NCBI GenBank assembly: GCA_000934665.2
Contig: KZ538027.1
Span: 62,001-126,000 of the forward strand
Direction: 5' to 3'
Source: Catajapyx aquilonaris
Lineage: Eukaryota
DNA: 64,000 nt
A model generated the notes under the pieces. That model saw only the letters and a list, made by a program, of their open reading frames with translations. It did not search any database and had not been told where the DNA came from. This document shows positions 1 through 40,600 of this stretch, piece by piece; positions within the stretch are counted from its first letter, which is position 1, and the number at the start of each line of letters is the position of its first letter. The translations under genes were made by a program, and so were the position numbers.

Positions 1-3000
1 AGAAATTGGGCCATACATTTTTTTTAAAACATGTTTGTTTATTCTGATAACTGCTGTTCGGACTGAATTTCATGACATTTGGTTTGCAATGGTGTAAAGT
101 CCATGTCGGTTTGCTGAGAGTGGATTTGTGTGCTAAGTAGTGAGTCAGGCAAATTGGATGTGCTTCTAATTTATGAAGCGGTAGCGCTTGTTATCACGTT
201 TAGCCCATTTCAAGAAGCATTTTTGTAGGTACCTTGCCTTTAATTAAGCAGAAACTTTATTTGTTTCATGGTTGAGAACTTTGCCTGCATTTTTGGTATG
301 TAACGAATATCTGTTAAGTACGGAAAGAACTGACAAACGTAATGAGCACTACATACTGCATTTAACTGTATTTTGAATTGTGTGGATGCAATGTATCGTA
401 TTAATATCATTTAAATTACGCTAGCTCTATGCTGCATTGTTAGTGTTGCCACCTGCTAGACTGTCACTTGAAACGGAGCCTCGTAATCACGTTCACCTAT
501 GTGGGAAGTGATTATCTTGTCCAACCATATTGCACAAGCAGATAATCCGAGTGCCACATGCTTCATTAGAGCCTTGAGAGTCTTTGAGTAATTAATTGGG
601 TTCCCAGTTGCTGTGTTCACGAGAATTCACCTGTTGTGAGGGAGACAATGGAGAGGAAAGGGACCCACTATTTTTGTTAAAATTATGAGTTCTTGGCCAT
701 GGTTTGCTTAACATTCTTGAGCTGGTGAGATGTGGTTTCAAAGCAGAAAACCCTTTCAGGTCAGTCGGAAGGTTATTTTAGCGCTCAATATTATTTGCAG
801 TTGCTGGAAGGTCTGCGATTGGCAGACAAAATAGATCCTAGTGTTGATGGGTCATCAATTCCAAGGTTATCACCTGACTTGCGCCAGTTGTGCACATTAT
901 GTTTCCACATTGTGAACACCTTTGTTGTGCAAGTTCCAGGTAGTGCACGTGAGATGCATCTATAATATTGCAAAAGTCTGTTGTGCCGCTTGTTGTAGCA
1001 CAAATTCATTATTTAGACTGTAACTTTGCTATTTTTAAGGAAGTTATTTAGCCAATTGACTTTTACAACTATGAGTAATATTATTTACTAGCGGAGTGCT
1101 CACATTATTATTATTGCTGGACAGATGGAGCTCTGCCTATCTTTTTACAACCGTTGTGTCACCCTGAAGGCATTTAGTACACTAGGTTTGTCATGTTTAT
1201 ATCATAATTTAAGTATGATGACATATTTAACACTGGCCATTAATTTTTTTAGAAGCGGCAGAGTAATAAAATATATCACATCGTAATAATTATGTGGTGG
1301 TGACATAATTGTTTTGTGTCCCTGCAACGGACGTGATTTCTGCAGATGACCTTACCGACTGTGCCCCTGAACGCCTGAAAATAAAAGCAGTGCTGTAACA
1401 ATGGTGGTTGAGTCTTAAAAAAGCACTGTTGTGTACACACACTCGAGATCAATGAGTAATGAATGACAGGGTGGTAAAAAAGGAGAAGGTATTCTTAGCT
1501 TCCCTTTGTTGAACGTGTGTCCAACAGTGAGTGGTACTTGCTACGCAAATACATTTCACTTACCTGGGTTCCAGTTGATGCAAAATGTTGTGGGGAGGAG
1601 GGTTGGGTGGGTGGGGGATGAATGACAGATTGAAAAGTTGTTATGAAGTTTCAAGATTGGCCTATTGCCTATTTGGACACACACCAATAACTCCCACAAG
1701 AAAAGCCAATTTCGTCAGTTTTGTTTCCTCCTCCTCCTTTTACGTAAAAATGATGGAATGCCGTGTAGATAAAGGGCCTCTGGCAGGATTTGTTGCGTCG
1801 TTGAGAAATTTTTGGGTGACGACAATGTTGGGATAGCATCACCAGTGTGGTCTCCGCATTCCCCGCACACACCCATACAGTGCGGTGCAAAATGCTTTCG
1901 GGGCATAGCTGAAAATTGACTCGACACTTTTAGCAGGCCCGAAGCTTTTAATGAGGCAGAAAATGTGGGTCACATGGCATAAGTACAGTTGACAGTTGTC
2001 CAAGGCTGTTACTCCCCTAGCCTCTTAAATAATGACCTTTAAGGATTGCTGGGGCCAGGTGAGTTGGCAGCCTGGCCGCAGGTAATCATCTCCCTCCAGG
2101 GACGAACGGTCTTCCATTCCAAAAGGTTGTTTTCAATTCAAACAAACCCGCCCCTCCGGGTGATTGATTATCTTTCCGGGTATAGTGGAAAGAAGTGGAA
2201 ATTGCTCCCATAGTGCGAGGATCTTAGGTGCTAACAGTTGCACGCCCACGTAGACGCTGGAATGGTATTTACCATAACACCAATTGAAATTCTTGGCACC
2301 TGCTCCTGAAACCGACTTTCACACTGCTACATACAGATTTGATATTGGTCGCGGACCTGGGCCGCTGAATTGACATAATTTGGGCTGGAAATTTATCGTT
2401 TTTTTTAACAATCCTGTCAGAATGCAGCCAGATTTATTTCCCACCAGATGAATAAGTCATGTTTTTCTGGAGGAATATTCCAGCTTTCTTGTAGTTTAAA
2501 AAAAATGACAATTTAGTTTCAGCGTTTTTTTCATATTTTGCAGAAAATGTGTTTACGCCTTCGTTGCATAATTTTTAAAAGTGTTCGTCTGTGTACTATT
2601 ACCGTAAAGGGGGCCTGGAGAGTGTCTTGCATTGCACATTCCATCTCCGTTGTATAACTCCAAGAGCAGATATCGCATTTGATGGCGGTAATTGAACATT
2701 GGCTGAAAGTACTTTGGTGCTTTCAAATATGATTTTGTTTCAATAAGTGACTCGCACCTTCAGTATTTATCGTCTTGGTAAACATGTTGCGGAAACCAAA
2801 TGACACCTGTCCGTAAATTGATTCTCTGGTTGCCAGGAGTTGGCTCAAGACGTTTGCCCGGATCATGAAACATCCTGTGCTTTTCGGGGTACTGCTTGTT
2901 AGGTTGGGACACCCGGTGTCGGTATGTAAGTGGGTGCCGTGTGGTGTTTTTGAGAGGCAGATAGAGGCAGAGGGGCGTGTGTTGTGGTGGGGGGCATGGT

Positions 3001-4586
3001 GCCAATCCCCCCTCCCATTTGAAAGGACCCTGGCGCTCCGGGAAGGAGGCTTCCGGAGGTCCTTGTTTGTTTTGGGACGGATCGGATAGGCATTTCGGCA
3101 GCTGCCTGGCACCTCAGGCAGACTACTTGGGACAATACTGCTCACTGATGATGGCCTCTCAACACAACCGATCCACCGCCACTCCTCCAGAGTACACCTT
3201 AGTGGTGGGATGAGCATATGGAAAGAAGAAGAAGAAAAAAAAAGAAAAGATATGAGGGAGAGCTATTTATAAATAGTTTGCAGGCCGGATAGTGATAGGG
3301 GTTCCAAATCATTTCACCCCCACGTTTTGCTCGATTCAGCGTTTGCGCGGTTTTTTTCCCGTTCAAAATAGGACCCCGGGGGCAGGATGGAGCCAAGAAT
3401 GTTGAACTTTGTAAATCGGATGGCAGGAGTCCAAAATATCGCTGAACTGCTTATTGGGAGTAGGCGGGAATATCATTATGGACTTGTTTCTGGCAGGTAC
3501 TCAGCTGGTAGATAAACACTTATTTTAAGAGAGCACCCAAGATGGAAAGCGAAGTACCAAAGTTGATCTAACTTGTAAGTGTAACCGAACGTGGGAGGCA
3601 TGCATGATTTGTTAAAATTTTTTTTTGTCTTAAATTTATCTTACAAGTTAGTGCAGTATTTTTACATACTACAGTACAATCTACATGAAGCGTCATGAAA
3701 TGTGATGGAATCTGCCTCGGACATTTCTTTCAAATGCAATTGGCATTGCTGTAATATGCAGGCGCAACACACGCAAAAGCAGGTGTTGATTTGTGAGGTG
3801 AATTTTGCAATATTTTTTCTCACGAGCATTTCATGTTTCAACAAGTTGTATAATTATTTTTTTTCCGTTAATCAAGGATTAATTTTTTGCTTGTGTTTTC
3901 AAGGGCATGAACTGAAAAAAAAGGCTAGCCGCATACAGTATGAGCGAATAGGCATGTTTATTGACTAGCACATTGCATACTTCCAGGCCCTTTAAGGCTC
4001 AAGTCACTCAAGAGTGTTTTTATAATTTTTTATTGCCACTTGTCGTGGAAGTGAAGTGTCTTCATTGCGGTGCCAAATGTTTCCTCATTCCTCAAAGTTG
4101 GGACAGTTCAGCTGTTTGTAAAAGCGTATGTCAGGACCTGTTGGGAGGCAAGATGACAGAAATGGTGGTTGGAGTCAGCAGAGAGAAAGCAGGTGGGTGG
4201 GTTAGGAGCTGTTAGAAAGAGAAAAAAAAGAGCTTAGGAGGTTTTCTTTTTTGCCGTGGTTTGAGCCAAGAGATTGCGCATCCCTCTTTGCAAGTATGCA
4301 GCCAGGGACCGTCCCATTTGACGCACTTTTTGGTTCTTATGCAGGACAGTACACCTGCCCTCGCAATATTAATGACTGCGACATCCACTTTGGAAACTCT
4401 GCCAGTAGGACACATTTTTGTGCATCACTTTTTTTTCCCCCTTCCCCCTGTTGGTTCAGCCTGAATGGAGATTTATGATGTGGAAACATGGAAAGAGTTT
4501 TGGAAACAAATTACAGGATGTGCATCTCTCTCTCTTTGCAGTGATGGAGGAATCCCTGGCGCTCTTGGTCGGCGGGATGGGTCATT

Positions 4587-18363: not shown

Positions 18364-19858
18364 TCACACCGCTGTTCCACGTTCCAGGTTCTGTTTGATC
18401 TCCGACGTGTACTGTCCATAGAATCGCTCCAGCTTCTTGTTGAACTTCATATTCCTCTCGTTGATGTAGTCGATATCGGCATCATCGTTGTGCATGCGAC
18501 GCCGACTGTACTTGGCCCGCTTTTCAATCCTGCAAAAAAAATTAAGGCTTCATTACATGTCCCAACCCTTTCAAAGTGTGATACTCACTGTCGCTCGACA
18601 TCCTCTGCCATTTTGTTAATGGCATCCTTACTGTCCTTCTGCTGCCCTTGGAGGATGGTGTTCCTGGAGGCGTAAAAGGCGGGCCCCAGACGCTCCTTCT
18701 CCCTCTCGTACTCATCCATGTCCGGTTTGATATTGCGCACCAGGTGGTTGTACTGCCTGTGAATTGCAAGCATTGAAGTGAAGGCAACGGCGATTCCCCA
18801 AGCTCTCGCAACAATTGGCCGTAGCGAAATCCCCATTCATCCGGTGCTTTTGTTAAACCTTTCATCCGGTGTGTCGGCTATTTTTCCGCACATTACTATC
18901 TCAATATGAAATTCTGGGAGGAGCAAAGTAATTTTGTGAAATTATTTTAAAATTTGTCATTTTCTGCAATTTCTTTTCTCAATATGCATTCACAACAATC
19001 ACGACTGTCAATAACCTACCGCATGTTACATAATTACGAACTTAAAGCTTATCAAAAGACCTTTAAAACGAGACATTTTTCCCAGGTTTGTATCTCACCT
19101 AGTGGGCGAGACAATTGTATTCAACTATTTCAAGATGCAGCTTTTTTTTTTTTGTAACAAACTTGAATAATTAATAATTTAATAGCTTCTGAAAGACATT
19201 TCGTGGTTTCAAATTATTGTTAACTGTGTAAAAGGACACTAGATAAACCGAGTTTCATCAAAATCTGAAAGTGTCAAGCAGAATGAGTGTGTTGATTAAA
19301 GTTGACATGTTGTGCTGCCAGGTTCCTCACCGAACGGTGGCGGCCTCGAAGTTGGAGAAGCCAGGGTCCGGGTTCTTCTTCTTCCTCTTCCGGTCCCACC
19401 TCTCTGCCTCGTCCGCCTGCATGTCGAGGAGCCTGGTCCTGGAGTAGTCCTCCCCCTGGGCCTCTGCTTCCCTCCTGCGGTCGTCCTCCTCCAGGAACCA
19501 CTCGGCCCTCCTCTTCTTGGCGTCCCAGTTGGTGGGAAGCTTTGCGCGCCTGTCCTCCTCCACCACCTCCTTGTTGTTCAGCACGCTCGCCTCATTCTAT
19601 AAGTACGCGCATGTCATTCATAATGCAACTATAATGCGGTGAATTAATTATTCCAACATTGAGCCCGCAACAACAACAACAAACCCTTCTGATGTGCAAG
19701 TCCCTGAGCCTCTTCATCCTGTCCGCATACTTCTGGGCGCTGCCGCTGCCGCTGCTGGAAGACGACGAAGAAGAAGAAGAAGAAGACTCTCCGCCGGATC
19801 CGCCCTCCTGAACCGGATCCGAATCGGGCTCGGCCACAGCTGCAGGCGAAGAAGACAT
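18364..19858 (-). CDS. SYF2: Pre-mRNA splicing factor SYF2. Exons 19858-19685, 19596-19331, 18756-18589, 18529-18364 (257 aa).
   Basis: Motifs [35 protein letters not shown] and [48 protein letters not shown] are characteristic of SYF2. GT-AG junctions are phase-consistent (774 nt). Confidence 0.96.
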
Positions 19859-20746
19859 CCCGGAAGATTTTTAACAACGAACGAACGAAATTCGCAGCAA
19901 CAAACTAAAAGTATCAACAAAAAAATATATAAAAAAAGATGGCGGACTACGTGACGTCATTTGCATTTACAACTTCACATACATTGAAAATAAGTTGTGA
20001 TAATACGCATGCGCTTCAGCATCGGAGACACTGTGATGTTGAAAATTTGGTCATTTGGTACGCATGCGTACAATAACTCTGAAGTATGTGAAGATGAAAA
20101 TGTGTGATATTCTTGCGCATGCGCCTAGGATTTGCACACACACTGTGAGGTTGAAAATGGGCATATTTATTACGCATGCGCACAAGCCTGTGAACAATGT
20201 GACGTTGGAATTTATTGTAATTTTTGCGCATGCGTGTAATCACTCTGAGTACGGTGAAGCTGAAAATTGGTCGATGTTGTTTTGCGCATGCGTTCCAGAC
20301 ATGCAAAGACTGTGAGGTTCACGTGAGGTTGAAAATGGGTTATTGCCACGCATGCGTACAAGTCCTGTCAGCAATGTGACGTTGGAATTTATTGTAATTT
20401 GTTGCGCAGGCGTACAATTACTCTGACTACTGTGAAGTTGAAAATAGTTGTTTCCATGCGCATGCGTTCAGGATATGCAAAAGTGTGAAGTTGAAAATTA
20501 ATCAGAAATTAATTGTTACTTGCTACGCATGCGTACAGGCACGGTAGACAATGTGAAGTTGAAAATCAGTAGTATTTGCTACGCATGCGTTCCAGCATAG
20601 TGGACATTGTGAAGTTGAAATTTTGTTGTGCCTTTCTACGCATGCGCTCCAGCATTTTAAACACTGTGGGCTTGAAAATCAGTTGTGGAGAGCATAGCAG
20701 CTATTTGTTTCATAAAAGTAGCAGTTGTCGACATTAGTTTGAAAAA
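19859..20746. promoter_or_regulatory. Bidirectional promoter region of SYF2 and HIBADH
   Basis: 888 bp lie between the divergent ATGs. It contains a YY1-like AAGATGGCGG (19936-19945), CRE TGACGTCA (19952-19959), octamer ATTTGCAT (19959-19966) and the NRF1-like array. Confidence 0.75.
19985..20680. repeat. Tandem array of 12 diverged units (about 56 bp) carrying RCGCATGCGY palindromes, in the SYF2/HIBADH intergenic region
   Basis: Palindrome copies near 20005, 20060, 20115, 20172, 20226, 20284, 20348, 20404 (variant), 20458, 20525, 20581 and 20638. They alternate with a TGTGA(A/G/C)GTTG(A/G)AA(A/T)T motif. Confidence 0.92.
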
Positions 20747-22024
20747 ATGGCAGCACAGACCAAAATGATGTTTTCTATTTCTACACGTGTTTTCGCCACG
20801 TGTGTTTTCTCCAGGAGCTTTTCAGGTACCGATTCGGGACCTTCAGATCTGGGAATCCAGTGTTAGCAACGATGAGTTGTTGATGTGAGTTTAAATGGAA
20901 TGTTATGTAACATGTGTCTTACCTTCCAGGAAGTGCTGCGGCCTGCAGGTCAAGTCAGGTCGGATTCGTTGGACTTGGGAACATGGGAGGTCCCATGGCC
21001 CTCAACCTCATCAAAAAGGTTAGGACAATTATTAGAGGTTGCACAGCACCAGTCATACACACTGTACTCATTATTCGCAGGGACATGAACTCGTTTCCTT
21101 CGATCTTGAACCAACCGCCGTGTCTGCACTGAAGGCTGCTGGAGCCACAATTGCACCCAGTCCTAAAGAAGTTGCGGCAACAACTAAGCAGATTGTGACG
21201 ATGCTGCCAAACAACGCGGCGGTCAGACAAGTGTACACTGGTCGAGGCGGACTATTAGAGTAATTAACACAGCTGGCTGTGACAGAGCAATTAATATGAT
21301 AACAATGAGTAATTTCAGGAGTGTGCGGACAGGAACGGTCTTGATTGACAGCAGCACCGTTTCCCCCGACGTGTCGAAAGAAATGTCGAAAATGGCTGCG
21401 GACAAAGGGGCCATTTTCTTGGACGCACCTGTGTCCGGCGGTTAGTTGCCAACGATTAGCTCATAAACATGTAATCAACAGTTGCTTCCTGCAGGTGTGA
21501 ATGCAGCAAGTGCAGCCACCCTAACATTCATGGTAGGTGGCGACAAGTCGCAGTACGAGTCAATCCGTCCATTGTTGCTGGCCATGGGAAAAAATGTGGT
21601 CCATTGCGGACCTGTCGGGTCAGGGCAGGCAGCCAAAATATGCAACAACATGCTCCTGGCCGTGTCGATGGTCGGAACGGCAGAGACAATGAACCTTGGG
21701 ATCAAGCTTGGGTTGGATCCGAAGCTGCTGGCCACCGTGCTCAACAATAGCTCCGGCCGATGCTGGTCCAGCGAGGTGTACAACCCGGTTCCAGGCGTGA
21801 TGGATGGCGTCCCATCATCCAATGAGTACAAGGGAGGGTTCGGGGTTGGGCTGATGGCCAAGGACTTGGGACTGGCTCAGGACGCTGCAACTGGGACGTC
21901 CTGTCCCATCCCTTTAGGAGCCTTGGCGCACCAGGTCTACAGGATGATGCTGGCTGCAGGCTACAGGCAGAAAGACTTTTCCTCAGTCTTCCAGTACTTG
22001 CAGGAGACGGACAAATCCTTATGA
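20747..22024 (+). CDS. HIBADH: Mitochondrial 3-hydroxyisobutyrate dehydrogenase. Exons 20747-20825, 20930-21018, 21081-21259, 21319-21440, 21495-22024 (332 aa).
   Basis: Rossmann motif VGFVGLGNMGGPMA, plus LIDSSTVSP, FLDAPVSGG, catalytic GSGQAAKICNNML and SSGRCWSSEVYNPVPG. The N-terminus lacks acidic residues and resembles a mitochondrial presequence. Junctions are phase-consistent (999 nt). Confidence 0.96.
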
Positions 22025-22169
22025 TTTCATGTTACTTGACAATGGTTACGGGAACAACTCTCTGCAGGCCTGTGTGACGTGAAAGTATTGTGCAATTTAA
22101 AATAATTATTTTTGTACCAAATCATCCAACAGTGCAGGATGTTTATTGACGACCAATGTTTTCAGTGGA

Positions 22170-22183: not shown

Positions 22184-22380
22184 GCTCATGAACTTGGTCA
22201 TTGGAATATTTTTATTACAATAATTATTAGCAGCATATTCTCTTAATCTCTAATAATCTCTTAATCACAAACTTATCACATTCTGTACGGATGGCTCTAC
22301 ACCAACGTAATACTATAGAGGGTGTAATCTAATCTGAAACAAGGGCAATGTAATCATAAAAAATTACACAACATATTGCA

Positions 22381-22524
22381 TAGGCTGTGTTTACATGTGA
22401 GCTATTTGATCAGCGATATGATGCGATGATATCAATGGTTTTGGAGCGAAATGCGATTGTTATTTTCACTCCAAACAATTGGTTTCATCGCTGAGCGAAT
22501 TTCTCACGTGTAAATGTGGCTTTA
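22381..22524. mobile_element. Degenerate relative of the 7552-7719 MITE, downstream of the MFSD9 stop codon
   Basis: The left end GGCTGTGTTTACATGTGAGCTATTTG resembles 7555-7580. The right end TTCTCACGTGTAAATGTGGCTTTA is an imperfect inverse of it. Confidence 0.5.
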
Positions 22525-22558: not shown

Positions 22559-24193
22559 TCAGCTCCTTTTACTTGCATTAAAACCCCTTCTCGATACAAT
22601 GTTAGCGAGAGTAAATGCGGTTAGAGAGCTGACCACGCCGACTAATCCAGGTCCTCTTAAGCTGACCTCCTGGGCCAGTCCAGCAAAGGTCGGGCTGACC
22701 ATCCTGGCCAGAGAGGTCACGCTCTGTCCTGCTCCAACCACTCCACCGATGCCTCTAACACCCTCATTGTCCGCAACGGCCTCTAAAGTCACCTCAGTAC
22801 AAGCCACTCGCAGCACCGCATTCGCAACACTAAACGGCACCAAGCAAATGCACAGCATGGTCATTGATGGAGCGACGGCCAGGCCGACTAGTGCAACCGC
22901 CTGCAATGCCGTGAAGTGAATTAGCTGCCTTTTGCTGTCTCCAGCGTACAGGTTGGCTAACGATCCGATTCCCAGCCCAGATATGGAGCTGGCTGCTCCC
23001 TGAAGCGACGTGAGGTATCCAATTTGTACAGGCGTAGCTTCAAACAGCGTCGAGAGCACCAGCGAGAAGTTGCTGCGATACACAATAGCCGCGAAGCTCA
23101 GTAGGAAGCGAAGGGTCAGGATATCCCAGCAGAGTGACCAGTCAATTGCAGTCAGGAACGAGTAAGAAGTGTTGGAACTGGGCGCTGTCGATTGCGACTC
23201 ATCGCACAGCAGCACAAGACCTGGAAGTAAATGTTATTAGTTGAGTTTGTTTTTTGTGCGCTCACTATTCGTACTGATTCGTACACACAAACTTACACCA
23301 ATTGAGCATGAACACTCCAGCTGCAGTGCAGCATATGAGATAAATTCCGCTGTCCATTCCGGCCAGATGTCCCCCGATTGTGGGTCCCACAATGAACCCC
23401 ATGCTTCCCAATGCGTTGAAGTTCCCCATGACCTTCGCCCTCTGCTCCGACCCTCCTCCAGCTTCCCAAGTGACCAGATCCAACACCATGGCTCGTGAGA
23501 GGTTCTGCGTGTGCTTGAAAAGACCAGACATCACTCTCGACAGCAGCACGACCGGCAAACTGGTGGCCAATCCAAGCAGAAGGTATCCGGCAGCCGATAA
23601 GACAAGGCATAAGGAGAGAACCCGCTTCCGTCCCTGGTTGTCGCTCAAGCTTCCCTATACGGAGAGTGCGCTATTAATAAGGTTGCGATGACATGCAATT
23701 GCGTACGTACCACTTGCGGACTGGATATGAGCTGGACGGCTCCGAACACAGATCCCAACACGCCGTTGAAGAACGGCGATGCTCCGAGGCTCTGGATGTG
23801 CGGCATCAGAACCGGTACCATCAGACTCACCGCCAGCAAATCCTGCGCACAGAGCGTACTCACTACTGATTGCACAAGTACACAAGTGCTAATTTCTAAT
23901 TACACAAGTACACAAGTGCTAATTTCTAATTACACAAGCACACAAGTACTAATTACACACTGTGCCCATTTGTTGCATTTTCGCGCCACAGTTTGAATAA
24001 TTAGATTGGCACCCCTGCAAGGTCACGTGACCGCACCCTATTGGCGCTATTGGCTATGAATCGACAGGGGTGCCAACCGCGTTTTCAAGTATGTGGGCCG
24101 GCAACTATAGTTAATGTGAAAAATGTAATTACCGGGTGTACTTACCATGAATGCAACGAGGTACAGTACGTATATCTGATGCTGCTTTCTCAT
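22559..24193 (-). CDS. MFSD9: Major facilitator superfamily transporter, MFSD9-like. Exons 24193-24146, 23842-23711, 23654-23297, 23220-22559 (399 aa).
   Basis: MFS motif A GSLSDNQGRK, plus FMDLLAVSLMVP, SRVMSGLFKHTQNLSRA, GFIVGPTIGG, YRSNF and GAGQSVTSLARMVSP, with many hydrophobic helices. Junctions are phase-consistent (1200 nt). Confidence 0.88.
23870..23960. repeat. 30-bp minisatellite (about 3 copies) in MFSD9 intron 1
   Basis: Unit TTACACAAGTACACAAGTGCTAATTTCTAA repeated in tandem. Confidence 0.85.
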
Positions 24194-24822
24194 CGTTCGA
24201 ATTTGTGTTTCGAACTGTTTTTCGAACACGAAAACAAACGATACCGAATAGCTACATGTCGATACTGACAACTGTTACAAAAATAGCGGCTATAACAGTT
24301 ATATTGTAATAAGCTGTTTGAATTTAAAATTGTAAGCACAAAATTGTTTAATATCATACAACGACAATAAGCTTCATGTCATTAATTCGTTGCTAAATTT
24401 TTATTAATATTTATAATAGCGTGATTGCAATCAGTTTCAGTGATGGGCGATTTCAATGTGGCGATGGTCGATAGCAGCTTTTGTTCCAAGATGGCGTCTC
24501 TTTTATTTATTTTTCCGCCTTTTCGAACGTTCTTTTTATTCCAGTGAAAGATGACGGATAGATTCCATTTTCCAGTCTAAAATCCAGCAGGTTCGGGTTC
24601 TAAAATTTTTAACATTATTTTTGGCATAATTTTTTTTGATGTGGTGACGTGCATTTGAGACGTTCAGTCAAGAAATCGTGTGAAATTAATAATTTCCCTT
24701 TTATATTCAGGTATGTGAGTGACGCTTGAAGGATCTTAAGCTTCCTAAGCACATTCTGAAGGGTTTGAAGCTTCATAAGCACAATCTGAAGGGTTTGAAG
24801 CTTCATAAGCGCAATCTGAAGG
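24194..24822. promoter_or_regulatory. Bidirectional promoter/5' UTR region of MFSD9-like and NPAT
   Basis: 629 bp lie between the divergent ATGs. There is a YY1-like CAAGATGGCG at 24487-24496 and a probable NPAT 5' UTR intron ending at AG 24709-24710. Confidence 0.65.
24727..24822 (+). repeat. 30-bp tandem repeat (3.2 copies) abutting the NPAT start codon
   Basis: Unit TGAAGGGTTTGAAGCTTCATAAGCACAATC at 24727, 24757 and 24787, then a partial TGAAGG directly before ATG 24823. Confidence 0.88.
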
Positions 24823-30800: not shown

Positions 30801-31618
30801 CGCTATTGGAGGTGACGATAATTGTCGGTGCCGTCTAAGCATAACACCATTTAAATTACTTCTGTCACTTGGTGACGTCACTGTCGGGACGCCCGGGGAT
30901 GATCCACGATTAAGCAAAGGTGGTCCAAAATCGAAGCAACTGGAGCCGCATCATCAGAAGTCGGCTTCTGTCATTACGAAGACCCATTTGGATACCGGGC
31001 TTTCGATGCCACCCCCAGTGATTAGTCTGGTAACGTCGCCATTGGAAAGATCCGTCACTCCATCGCCATTGGAAAGATCCGTCACTCCATCGCCATTGGA
31101 AAGATCCGTCACGCCATCACCATTGGAAAGATCCGTCACCCCAGCGCCATTGGAAAGATCCGCCACTCCAGCGCCATTGGAAAGATCTGTTACGCCATCG
31201 CCATCAGCCAATTCGTCAATGACTCCGGTCCACTTAGACGATGGGCTGATGAACTATGCAATCATTGGGAGCGAACGAGTCGAGTTGGAGGAGCCAAGCG
31301 ATCAGATACTAAGGTTGTGCCTTACCAATGGCATAAGCGTGAAGACAACAGCACCGCAAGTGTATCCTGATTCTGAGAAGGGAGGCACACACGTTAGCAA
31401 AGCGTCTGAGAAGGAAGTCACCAAGTTGCCACCAAAGAAACGGAAATCAGTGGAGGAAGTGGCACAATCCGTAAGTTTATGCTCGTTTAGGCGGGAGTGC
31501 CATTTTTGCTTTCATGATACGTTCTGTGTTTCAGGAGCAGCGACAAGGCGACCAACAGAGGCTTCTTCAGCATGTGAACGTGGAGGAATTTCTTTCCCGA
31601 ATCCATGGAAAGGAATAG
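24823..31618 (+). CDS. NPAT: NPAT / multi sex combs (histone locus body scaffold). Exons 24823-24868, 24937-25104, 25162-25301, 25356-25587, 25687-25744, 25805-25886, 25961-26195, 26267-26615, 26673-27766, 27824-28000, 28088-31470, 31535-31618 (about 2015 aa).
   Basis: The N-terminal LisH-type LLPSEVARLVLGYL resembles human NPAT MLLPSDVARLVLGYL. Also present: LAENINR, IIHQTESNPVFEDFLAEVFD (like the NPAT TESDPAF..LFD region), a long S/T-P-rich disordered body, and C-terminal VNVEEFLSRIH (like NPAT DVDKFLLSLH). Junctions are phase-consistent (6048 nt). A few internal boundaries are ambiguous. Confidence 0.88.
31036..31203 (+). repeat. Coding 27-bp minisatellite (about 6 copies) encoding (S/A)PLERS(V/A)TP in NPAT
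   Basis: Unit TCGCCATTGGAAAGATCCGTCACTCCA repeated in frame. Confidence 0.92.
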
Positions 31619-37600: not shown

Positions 37601-40600
37601 GAGGAGATTGCCAGTCATGCAGCCAATCACAGGGCTCAGGACGTGACCCAAGAATATCGATATATCGTCCTCAACACCGCGATTGGAGAATATCGATACA
37701 CAAGGAACATATCAAGAATATTGATGCATCAGAACATCAATAATATCGATATATCAGAACATATCAAGAACATAGATATATCAAAATATCGATACGCAAG
37801 CCCACATCAAGAAAACGATTTATCTGGATACGAGGGAGGAGCTTACCAGCCATGCAGCCAATCACAGGGCTCAGGACGTGACCCAAGAATATCTCGATAT
37901 ATCGTCCACAACCACGCAATTGAAGGATATAAATCACCAAGAACATATCAAAAATATCGATATATCAGTACATGTCAAGAACATCGATATATCAAAATAT
38001 TAATACACCGATCATATCAAAAATATCGATATATCAAAACATTGATACACCCTTGGATACACCGATCATATCAAAAATATCGATATATCAAAACATGCAA
38101 GAACATCGATACATCAGAATATGTCTAGTACAACGACATATCAGAACTTGCAAGAACATCGATATATCAATATTAATAAACAAGACCATATCAATAATAT
38201 CGATATATGAAACCATATCAAGAACATCGATATACCAACCTATATAAAAATTATTCATCAGAATATATCAAAATATCGATACATCAAGAACATATCATCG
38301 ATAAATTAAGAATATATCGAGAGTGTCGATGTATCGATATTTTTGGGTGCCTCCTGATACATCTGTTGCTAGTTTTTACTGATTTGTTCACCCTGTAGGC
38401 TCCTGCATGAAGGAATGCGTTCGTTTGGAGTGTCTCTGTACAGCAGGTCCCAGTCAGTGGTGGGAAGAAGACCACGCGCCTGGTGATTTCCATCTCTCCG
38501 GGACATGTCATTTTTATTCGGGCCACATTTCATTTTTACGGTTGGTTCCAGTCCACCTTTACTGCGCATCAGAAGCTATCTGGCCCTCTCCACCCCCCTC
38601 CACCTTTTCCTCCTTCCTCTCAAAGGCCCAGAGAGGGACAGCTTTATTGCTCCAAGAATCCAGCTTTTTCCGAGTGCTACTTTTTACTTGTGACAAGTGA
38701 AAAGTGTGAAACTACTCGCTTTTTGAGGAGGAATTGAGGTGGACAAGAGGTCAAATCTAAAAACCGATTCTTTCCCTTTTTGTGCCAAGCCGCGTGTGTT
38801 GTGTGTGTTGTGTGTGTGCACATACACAATGGGATTACATGGGTGCAGCGTTGGTAACCGGACACATGTGACATAAAGGACTTCCCTACTGGGGGTTGTT
38901 TGAAGCGAATTATTATGCCCCCTTGCTTTCTAAGGAGCCGGACTTTCTCCAGCAGGGGTTGGAATTTCACAACTGGAGACATTTAGCAACCTTCAATTCA
39001 TCATCTGGTTTGCGGCGATTGTCCCTTTGATTTTAAATTATGGGATGGGCTGCTGGAAGGTAAGGGGGGGGGGGTGTATAGAGGAACCACCGTTACCACC
39101 TGAGGTGTGATGTTTTTTTTTCCAGGAGAAGGTTACCGGTGGAACAAAAGGCACGAGCATCTTCCGAAGCCATTTTCATTGGGGATCAATTTGGTGGCCC
39201 GAAAGAAAAAAAAAAATGGGGGCCAACTTTCCACACCGCAATTAATCCGCATCTGCATGTGGATGAATTCAAAGGCAAAAAGGGGAAGGAGAAAACGGAC
39301 GTGACCCAGTGCTCCTTTGAGATGCTGGACAAAACGCTGCCCTTTAGGGTAAAACATGTTGACAAATACGGAGCAAAAAAAAGGAGAAATATTCCCCTCC
39401 CTTGGAATGCGACGTTAATTTGTCAAAAAAAAGCCAAGCAATATCACTTAACAATTAATTGACCATGTTCACACCCGGATGGTGAGGATGTTTTATGTGT
39501 CGAGTAGTCCCGGACATGTCAAAGGTGGACAACGGACATCAAGTGGGCCAATCGCCCACTTGGGTCTGCTGCAAAATTCCCCACAAAATAGTTCATTGCC
39601 ATATGACCAGTCGGGGTCTTTTCCACATTAGAGTTAAAGAGCATGCAAAACATGCATCGCACTTGCATGGTCACGTTACTATCACGGCTGGTTTGTGCAA
39701 AAAAATATTGCAAAAAAAGTGCATGTACAGATCGCTTAAATAAAACGGGCCAAGTTCAAACGGACCAGACGTCCTCCAAGGTTATGCACTTTTTTTTCTT
39801 TCCTTCTGTCCCATCACAAGCAGAACCAGTCCCAACCATTGTTCTGTTTAGTTACTGTCTGTGCAAGTAACATTTCGAAATGTTTACAAGTACCGTTGGA
39901 CGGGTGACCCAATAGATAATGCCTTTTTTCGGACAAGGACTGTAGACTTGAATCCTGGAATCTCAACCTGCGGATCCATGCAAAAAAAAAAGAAAAGAAA
40001 GATTGGCTATAATTTATCGCTCATTACATAACAGCTGCCGCTTGCCAGGGCTCGTTGCGATTGCAATTTACGAAACTCTGCATCAAAATAATGAGCAATA
40101 TAATGGGAGTAAGTACCGTATTACCAGGCGTCGGAATGTCGTAATCGGTGCAACTTTCTTTGGGGAATGTTTCTGCATGGTATAACATTCCAGTCAAAAA
40201 AATATTTTCACTTGGGAGAAACGTTCCGCCATTTTCTTTTGAAGACGTCTCCATAATAATCCAAACACGGTGGCATATCTTGCCGGAACTGACATGTTCA
40301 GTGGGCGTGTCGCAATAATAATTTTCTCCCACAACATCATGAACAAGCTTTCTAGCAATGCAAAAAAAAAAAAAAAGTCGAGACTTGTAAAGCCTCCCAG
40401 TGTGCGACGGACATGTTGGCAAAACCCCCCCTCCGAAAATTAAAGCCCATCATCACCAAGGCTCATCAAATAACCTGACAACTGCAGCATAAGGCCTCGA
40501 AGGTTTGACGATGGCCCCAAAGCCTGATTCTTCAAGATCCACCCACGTGTTTCTTCACTGCAAAAAAAAAATAAAATGGCGGCCCCTCAAAAAAATTTAA

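What the first reader, a model, noticed from the sequence alone, without database searches (positions are those of the whole stretch)
19985..20680. Bidirectional promoter built from a 12-unit tandem array of NRF1/EWG-type palindromes
Seen: most of the 888 bp between the divergent SYF2 and HIBADH start codons is an array with a period of about 56 bp. Two blocks are conserved in each unit, RCGCATGCGY and TGTGAAGTTGAAAAT, while the sequence between them has diverged. Established: (T)GCGCATGCGC(A) is the NRF1/Erect wing consensus. NRF1 sites are enriched at bidirectional promoters and at nuclear genes for mitochondrial proteins, and HIBADH is mitochondrial. Inference: retention of the motifs against diverged spacers suggests a functional homotypic array, i.e. 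a minisatellite co-opted as a promoter whose copy number may tune both genes. The second motif may bind an unidentified partner factor.
Basis: partly seen in the sequence, partly recalled or inferred. Interest (0 to 1): 0.8.

Follow-up and report, generated by a model that had tools for sequence, protein, structure and literature searches.

The report
Amplified NRF1-site array in shared promoter
Between two back-to-back housekeeping genes of an arthropod, a short promoter module carrying an NRF1-type binding site and a second, unidentified motif was copied twelve times long ago and has kept both motifs while the DNA between them drifted, which points to a working control element, although binding and function are untested.

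Summary
The array is real: 12 units of 54-67 bp fill most of the 888 bp between the SYF2 and HIBADH start codons. It is single-copy in the genome. Spliced contigs show both genes expressed, with starts at most 801 bp apart. Both motifs are better kept than neutral divergence predicts (simulation P<=0.007). Motif A matches the NRF1 consensus RCGCANGCGY in 12 of 12 units, is about 5-fold enriched genome-wide, and the genome's NRF1/EWG keeps the three base-reading residues. Only 1 of 12 sites is the optimal 10-mer; 4 are a form human NRF1 binds weakly. New here: motif B is not enriched alone, but recurs 13-26 bp from NRF1 sites at 11 other loci (8 unseen beforehand, about 1 expected), several upstream of housekeeping genes. 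Best reading: an existing two-motif promoter module amplified by tandem duplication and kept by selection. This is not a naive minisatellite co-opted as a promoter, and copy-number tuning is unsupported because the units are old and diverged. No binding or reporter data. The scan holds no look-alike of this DNA; it noted unrelated promoter minisatellites in algae.

The parts
19984..20684 (.). Tandem array: 12 units of 54-67 bp, each motif A + 16-19 bp spacer + motif B + 10-15 bp spacer (unit 6 has an 11-bp and unit 9 a 12-bp insertion); preceded by a truncated B remnant at 19984-19991; units 2-10 show a three-unit higher-order period of 166-180 bp
20005..20647 (.). Twelve motif A sites (RCGCANGCGY, NRF1/EWG type) starting at 20005, 20060, 20115, 20172, 20226, 20284, 20348, 20404, 20458, 20525, 20581, 20638. 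One optimal GCGCATGCGC (unit 3), seven with one outer base changed, four ACGCATGCGT (units 2, 7, 10, 11)
   Evidence: consensus in PMC1702496 Table 1; affinities in PMC10810270
20032..20679 (+). Twelve motif B sites (GTGAnGnTGrAAwT) starting at 20032, 20087, 20144, 20198, 20253, 20322, 20375, 20431, 20484, 20552, 20608, 20665; 25-26 bp after the core start in 10 of 12 units; all point to HIBADH; binding factor unidentified
   Evidence: recurrence beside NRF1 sites elsewhere
19965..19979 (-). Thirteenth motif B, inverted, pointing to SYF2
   Evidence: (I6, I8, I9)
19936..19959 (.). SYF2-side core elements: YY1-like AAGATGGCGG (19936-19945) and CRE TGACGTCA (19952-19959)
   Evidence: labels from the motif table in PMC1702496 and recall
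18407..19926 (-). SYF2 gene: exons 19926-19685, 19596-19330, 18755-18588, 18528-18407; ATG at 19858
   Evidence: Pfam PF08231; spliced contig of run X5
20727..22154 (+). HIBADH gene: exons 20727-20822, 20927-21016, 21079-21259, 21319-21439, 21494-22154; ATG at 20747; 20727 is computed from the contig's length and joints
20679..20684 (+). Initiator-like TCAGTT at the end of the last motif B, a candidate HIBADH start site
   Evidence: sequence; consensus recalled, not tested

Best explanation
The array is the upstream activating part of the bidirectional SYF2/HIBADH promoter. An ancestral module of about 56 bp, holding one NRF1/EWG site and one site for a second, unidentified DNA-binding factor (motif B), was duplicated in tandem (monomer, then a trimer copied again) and has since been kept by purifying selection on the two motifs. 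NRF1/EWG dimers, binding mostly medium- to low-affinity sites, and the B factor would occupy several units, keep the region open and feed both core promoters. Shown: anatomy, single copy, motif conservation, expression and divergence of both genes, presence of NRF1/EWG, recurrence of A+B elsewhere. Inferred: binding, selection, effect on either gene, existence of a B factor.
For: Position: spliced contigs reach 19926 (SYF2) and 20727 (HIBADH), so the two starts are at most 801 bp apart and flank or enter the array. Conservation: in 9 sister-unit pairs the core differs at 1 of 72 positions, B at 19 of 135, spacers at 90 of 258; a run of 8 near-invariant columns arose in at most 0.7% of uniform-rate simulations in all 8 settings. 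Motif A: 2354 genome sites against 188 for the reversed word and 376-489 from Markov models; pairs 35-65 bp apart 93 against 1. NRF1/EWG gene present, with residues matching human R206, N242, R244 (residue roles from PMC10810270). Non-repeat motif A loci carry GC boxes (10 of 25 single, 10 of 22 clustered, against 4 of 40 controls), YY1-like (7 of 25 against 2 of 40) or CRE (7 of 22 against 2 of 40) motifs more often. A+B outside the array: 14 matches at 11 distinct loci, 8 loci unseen when the pattern was set, against 0.7-1.0 expected; 4 of the 11 lie upstream of outward-facing Pfam-confirmed genes (6PGL; RFT1/FGGY pair; THAP gene; sirtuin/MIF4G pair) against 0 of 24 controls treated alike, p=0.006; a fifth heads CCT6.
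Against: No binding, chromatin, start-site or reporter data. Human NRF1 binds ACGCATGCGC about 4-fold more weakly and ACGCATGCGT only weakly (PMC10810270 Table 2); the latter word is barely enriched here (202 against 110-144 expected). Part of the genome-wide excess of motif A comes from dispersed repeats (15 of 40 sampled sites, 10 in one cassette). Motif A alone is only weakly tied to gene starts (7 of 70 against 0 of 40, p=0.04; at least 4 loci lie inside or behind genes), and a codon-bias profile gave no clear signal. Motif B alone is not enriched (321 against 301; 8 against 6) and 37 sampled B-only loci show no excess of promoter motifs. A-B spacing elsewhere varies (13-26 bp) and most outside copies read TG[C/T]AA where the array has TGAAA or TGGAA. 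The count of invariant columns alone is weaker (P 0.000-0.125). Among the 8 unseen A+B loci only 1-2 have Pfam-confirmed outward genes (p=0.06-0.25). The neighbouring divergent promoter at 24.0-24.5 kb has neither motif. No related genome was available to test conservation between species.
Confidence: 0.66

Rival explanations
1. Mostly neutral amplification. Duplications arise preferentially at NRF1-bound sites; only the units next to each start site matter. Inner units look conserved because they are bound, unmethylated or converted among themselves, not because they are needed.
For: In human germline, short insertions at NRF1 sites often duplicate the motif (PMC8559717 passages; these are 5-20 bp). 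Many unrelated tandem duplications around motif A occur in this genome with different unit sequences. Other A+B promoters manage with 1-6 sites. Most sites here are sub-optimal.
Against: All 12 units, inner ones included, keep both motifs with no CpG decay in 24 core CpGs, while spacers approach saturation (spacer CpG o/e 0.40). A-B spacing is held at 25-26 bp in 10 of 12 units.
Confidence: 0.17
2. The array is a functional promoter element, but motif A is read by another factor (for example a zinc-finger or THAP protein that prefers ACGCATGCGT), not NRF1/EWG.
For: 11 of 12 sites depart from the optimal 10-mer; 4 of 12 are weak for human NRF1.
Against: 12 of 12 fit RCGCANGCGY, the conserved mammalian NRF-1 motif. 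Genome-wide the G-containing forms carry the enrichment (2152 of 2354). The local NRF1/EWG is intact.
Confidence: 0.09
3. The array acts mainly as a chromatin structure (boundary, nucleosome-spacing element or replication origin) between the two genes and not as an activator.
For: The three-unit period is 166-180 bp, close to a nucleosome repeat (comparison recalled). The two insertions (11 and 12 bp) are about one helical turn, on two cases only.
Against: Both motifs occur singly at other promoters. A trimer period follows from duplication history alone.
Confidence: 0.05
4. The array is a small-RNA cluster or a transposon remnant.
For: Regular period and self-complementary cores.
Against: No Rfam match at E<=1, no tRNA, folding no better than shuffles (z -0.62), single copy in the genome.
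Confidence: 0.03

Closest known systems
NRF1 (alpha-PAL, Drosophila EWG, sea urchin P3A2) sites in housekeeping and bidirectional promoters (PMC10810270, PMC3082894)
   Same: RCGCANGCGY palindrome, head-to-head genes less than 1 kb apart, company of YY1, CRE and GC-box motifs
   Different: Twelve regularly spaced, mostly sub-optimal sites, each paired with a second motif; an arthropod, AT-rich (41% GC) and not a CpG island
Binding-site clusters formed by local duplication (Drosophila modules, PMC3188502; human NRF1 clusters, PMC8559717)
   Same: Neighbouring sites share ancestry through tandem duplication
   Different: Here the duplicated unit is a two-motif module of about 56 bp, copied 12 times with higher-order structure; the human insertions are 5-20 bp
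Mouse Dhfr/Msh3 bidirectional promoter with four 48-bp GC-box repeats; SV40 21-bp repeats (recalled; searches did not confirm it)
   Same: Bidirectional promoter built from tandem units, each with one activator site
   Different: Different factor (Sp1), fewer copies, one motif per unit
Promoter VNTRs that tune expression (listings)
   Same: Tandem repeat with factor sites in a promoter
   Different: VNTR units are near-identical and vary in number; these units are strongly diverged and variation is unshown
M4 motif ACTAYRNNNCCCR bound by THAP11/HCF-1 beside ZNF143 (PMC5006282, PMC3082894)
   Same: A bipartite motif found with NRF1 and YY1 sites at bidirectional promoters; some B copies read TACAAC..C(A/C)CA on the reverse strand
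   Different: Motif B has one more base between the halves and the array copies lack both ACTA and CCC; not a match

Membership tests
NRF1/EWG-regulated promoter | Sites match RCGCANGCGY | tested here: met
   12 of 12 (consensus)
NRF1/EWG-regulated promoter | High-affinity GCGCATGCGC sites | tested here: inconclusive
   1 optimal, 7 single-change, 4 double-change; affinities known for the human protein only
NRF1/EWG-regulated promoter | Genome encodes NRF1/EWG with intact base-reading residues | tested here: met
   PF10491 E 1.6e-82; R206, N242, R244 equivalents kept; 88-93% to insect Ewg/P3A2
NRF1/EWG-regulated promoter | Motif enriched and promoter-associated in this genome | tested here: inconclusive
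   About 5-6-fold over Markov expectation, partly repeats; gene-start association 7 of 70 against 0 of 40
NRF1/EWG-regulated promoter | Factor binds in vivo and is needed for transcription | not testable with these tools
   Needs EMSA, CUT&RUN, knock-down
Bidirectional promoter | Head-to-head transcribed genes with starts less than 1 kb apart | tested here: met
   Spliced contigs of one run reach 19926 and 20727; definition in PMC3082894
Bidirectional promoter | Shared elements drive both genes | not testable with these tools
   Needs dual reporter
Tandem-duplication-derived site cluster | Units homologous outside the motifs | tested here: met
   Spacer identity 0.47 against 0.39 +/- 0.008 shuffled; units 4 and 7 0.87; lag-3 peak; tree groups 2/5/8 and 4/7/10
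Promoter VNTR | Near-identical units | tested here: not met
   In-phase trimers 63-75% identical
Promoter VNTR | Copy number varies among individuals | not testable with these tools
   DNA runs listed are one sample, possibly the source
Dispersed satellite or transposon | Copies of the unit elsewhere in the genome | tested here: not met
   One DNA match, itself; strict composite pattern 5 of 5 in the array; the search may skip common words
M4 / THAP11 element (for motif B) | ACTAYRNNNCCCR | tested here: not met
   Compared with B columns and outside copies
Antioxidant response element (for motif B) | TGAYnnnGC (consensus recalled) | tested here: not met
   Array copies have GA or GG where GC is required; some outside copies (C230, C322, C388, C1198) do fit

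The most novel reading that the evidence does not exclude
Motif B (about KTGAnGTTGHAAW) is the site of an undescribed factor that works with NRF1/EWG at a set of housekeeping promoters in this arthropod lineage, and the SYF2/HIBADH array is a selected, twelve-fold, low-affinity multimer of that two-factor module with held spacing: a natural synthetic-style promoter inside a vertebrate-like (NRF1, YY1, CRE, GC box) promoter grammar.
Probability: 0.4. Interest if true: 0.65.

Novelty: new variant of a known kind. Interest (0 to 1): 0.47.

Why it matters
Promoter site clusters made by duplication are known, so the class is not new. This case is unusually large and old, with clear motif-against-spacer contrast, which makes it a ready natural test of whether many weak sites are selected in place of few strong ones. 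It also exposes a candidate partner motif of NRF1/EWG that I could not match to a known factor, and it suggests that NRF1/EWG serves as a housekeeping promoter factor in this arthropod, alongside YY1-, CRE- and GC-box-like motifs.

Tried and rejected
Motif B as a common stand-alone promoter motif: not enriched in two of three patterns; the third (645 against 210) falls to 1.5-2-fold against Markov expectation, and 37 sampled loci of the 100 listed included repeats and long open frames, with no excess of promoter motifs. Rigid A-B spacing genome-wide: rejected, 13-26 bp. Codon-bias profile around motif A loci: uninformative. RNA gene, tRNA or structured RNA: nothing. Run X5 has no contig over the array bins, and DNA runs X1, X2, X4 laid no long piece over it; neither is evidence. 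No RNA holder is on record; X5 is taken as RNA from its spliced joints. Copy-number variation and cross-species conservation could not be tested: no relatives held. The Fisher tests on motif against spacer are post hoc and anchored on the motifs, so I rely on the simulation. A short first exon at C1165 could not be identified. Literature searches for such an array or for motif B words gave nothing relevant in the listings; the library lacks most subscription papers. The Dhfr parallel stays recalled. Context of the B-only sites was not examined. The Ser-to-Met change beside R244 is shared by 119 of 120 insect homologues, so it is not special to this genome.

Full report
Observation. The window is G000:C96:62001-126000 of a 285.6 Mb assembly; its NRF1/EWG is 88-93% identical to insect Ewg/P3A2, so the organism is an arthropod, probably a hexapod. 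Twelve cores spaced 54-67 bp lie at 20006-20646, inside the 888 bp between the SYF2 and HIBADH start codons. Every RCGCANGCGY of the window (12 of 12) is in the array. The array DNA matches only itself in the genome, and the strict composite pattern gives 5 matches, all in the array.

Anatomy. Each unit is motif A, a spacer, motif B and a second spacer. Seven of 8 core columns and 8 of 15 B columns are invariant over 12 units; B starts 25-26 bp after the core in 10 of 12. Spacers are homologous but nearly saturated (0.47 against 0.39 shuffled), with a peak at lag 3; in-phase trimers are 63-75% identical and the unit tree groups 2/5/8 and 4/7/10. The array therefore grew by repeated tandem duplication and is old. 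A 13th B copy, inverted, sits at 19965-19979 next to CRE- and YY1-like elements on the SYF2 side.

More than neutral drift. In 9 hand-picked sister pairs the core differs at 1 of 72 sites, B at 19 of 135 and spacers at 90 of 258 (post hoc). In simulations with one rate for all columns on the unit tree, a run of 8 near-invariant columns occurred with P<=0.007 in all 8 settings; the count of 11 invariant columns of 55 gave P 0.006-0.014 at matched divergence and up to 0.125 at lower divergence. This shows constraint or protection on the motifs, not its cause.

Promoter position. Run X5, from a second study and not labelled RNA but spliced at GT-AG joints, holds contigs for both genes; they reach 19926 (SYF2) and 20727 (HIBADH, computed from length, joints and depth). 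True starts lie at or inside these points, at most 801 bp apart, which meets the under-1-kb definition of a bidirectional promoter (PMC3082894, passages).

Motif A. RCGCANGCGY is listed as the NRF-1 motif of Xie et al. in PMC1702496 (one passage). The genome encodes NRF1/EWG and keeps the equivalents of R206, N242 and R244, the base-reading residues in PMC10810270 (abstract and passages; its supplementary binding curves were not seen). RCGCATGCGY occurs 2354 times against 188 for the reversed word and 376-489 by Markov models; close pairs occur 93 times against 1. Against this: 15 of 40 sampled single sites (40 of the first 50 listed) belong to repeat families; human NRF1 binds one-change sites 4-fold more weakly and ACGCATGCGT weakly, and the array has 1 optimal, 7 one-change and 4 two-change sites; ACGCATGCGT is only 1.4-1.8-fold over expectation. 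Non-repeat motif A loci are richer than 40 random loci in GC boxes, YY1-like or CRE motifs, but not CCAAT (a slightly higher GC content, may contribute). By my reading of Pfam scans of 283 selected frames, 7 of 70 motif A loci and 0 of 40 controls have an outward gene start within 1 kb (p=0.04). Among 30 other clusters fetched (all distinct loci among the first 50 of 93 matches) the largest held 8 sites in 700 bp, against 12 here; several are tandem arrays pairing motif A with other motifs.

Motif B. Alone it is not convincingly enriched. Next to motif A it is. After noticing B-like words near cores at C230, C388 and C6324 I searched CGCATGCG N12-26 TGANGYTGNAA: 22 matches, 8 in the array and 14 outside, at 11 distinct loci (C2369 and C12850 are one duplicated sequence). 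Leaving out the 3 loci seen beforehand, 8 remain against 0.7-1.0 expected (the background rate rests on 6 hits and an assumed 2354-3300 cores). At gaps of 30-59 bp there are 6 outside matches, 2 of them the same B sites, against 1.4-2.0 expected; near against far gives p=0.02-0.03. The flanks are otherwise unrelated. With 132 of 144 frames scanned (the duplicate locus left out), 4 of 11 loci face Pfam-confirmed outward genes, two of them divergent pairs, plus one weak zinc-finger hit, against 0 of 24 controls treated alike (p=0.006); one more heads CCT6. Five loci gave no such support. B does not match M4/THAP11 (PMC5006282, abstract) and the array copies do not fit the recalled ARE consensus.

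How it most likely works. A promoter module with one NRF1/EWG site and one B site, of a kind used singly at other housekeeping promoters, was amplified between SYF2 and HIBADH. Many moderate sites would give steady occupancy and open chromatin; NRF1 is classed as a chromatin-opening promoter factor in mouse cells, though its degradation had limited effect in that study (bioRxiv 10.64898/2026.05.04.722487, passages). Binding, selection and effect on either gene are inferred. Confidence 0.66; neutral amplification with only end units needed 0.17; another reader of motif A 0.09; structural role 0.05; RNA or transposon 0.03.

Comparison and verdict. Site clusters formed by duplication are described in flies (PMC3188502, abstract) and at human NRF1 sites (PMC8559717, passages); bidirectional housekeeping promoters are common in invertebrates such as amphioxus (PMC6292497, passages). 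It works like those; it fails the near-identity test for a VNTR. Searches (listings only) showed no report of such an array or of motif B, and the scan's own notes hold no look-alike. Verdict: real, probably functional, a new variant of a known kind; interest 0.47, carried mainly by the unidentified partner motif.

Noticed in passing
G000 loci L081, L084, L094-L097, L099, L101, L103, L104: A dispersed cassette of about 100 bp with two CCAAT boxes, a GTTACC word, an NRF1-type site and a CTCF-like word (label recalled) makes up 10 of 40 sampled motif A sites; possibly a mobile element carrying a ready-made promoter or insulator.
   Followed up: partly
L067 (G000:C1694), L038 (C51), L051 (C471), L040 (C149), L102 (C20): Other unrelated tandem arrays built on the NRF1-type site, paired with GC boxes (8 units), CCAAT boxes or other words; L067 lies between exons of an EGF-repeat gene.
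   Followed up: partly
L043, L045, L055, L063, L088: A second repeat family with NRF1-type sites flanking a GGATCTAC word.
   Followed up: no
L200 (G000:C388:77089-77418): Six motif A and three motif B sites directly upstream of a THAP-domain gene; a candidate for the B factor only by proximity.
   Followed up: no
L009 (G000:C1233:36699-36935): A degenerate second NRF1-domain match with one stop inside.
   Followed up: no
window 22380-22520: High-copy short dispersed repeat (summed depth about 900-1500) between the 3' ends of HIBADH and the MFS gene; a smaller one at 19232-19268 in a SYF2 intron.
   Followed up: no
window 24000-24500: A second divergent promoter, between an MFS transporter gene and a long gene at 24.9-31.7 kb that looks like NPAT/Mxc (recalled; no Pfam or PDB match). 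It has CCAAT, E-box and YY1-like words but no motif A or B.
   Followed up: partly
window 37687-38318: Degenerate 17-42 bp repeat array rich in ATCGATA, resembling DRE/BEAF words (recalled).
   Followed up: no
window 23869-23954, 24727-24822, 31036-31204: Young tandem repeats: two of 30 bp (about 3 copies) and a 27-bp coding repeat of 6.3 copies.
   Followed up: no
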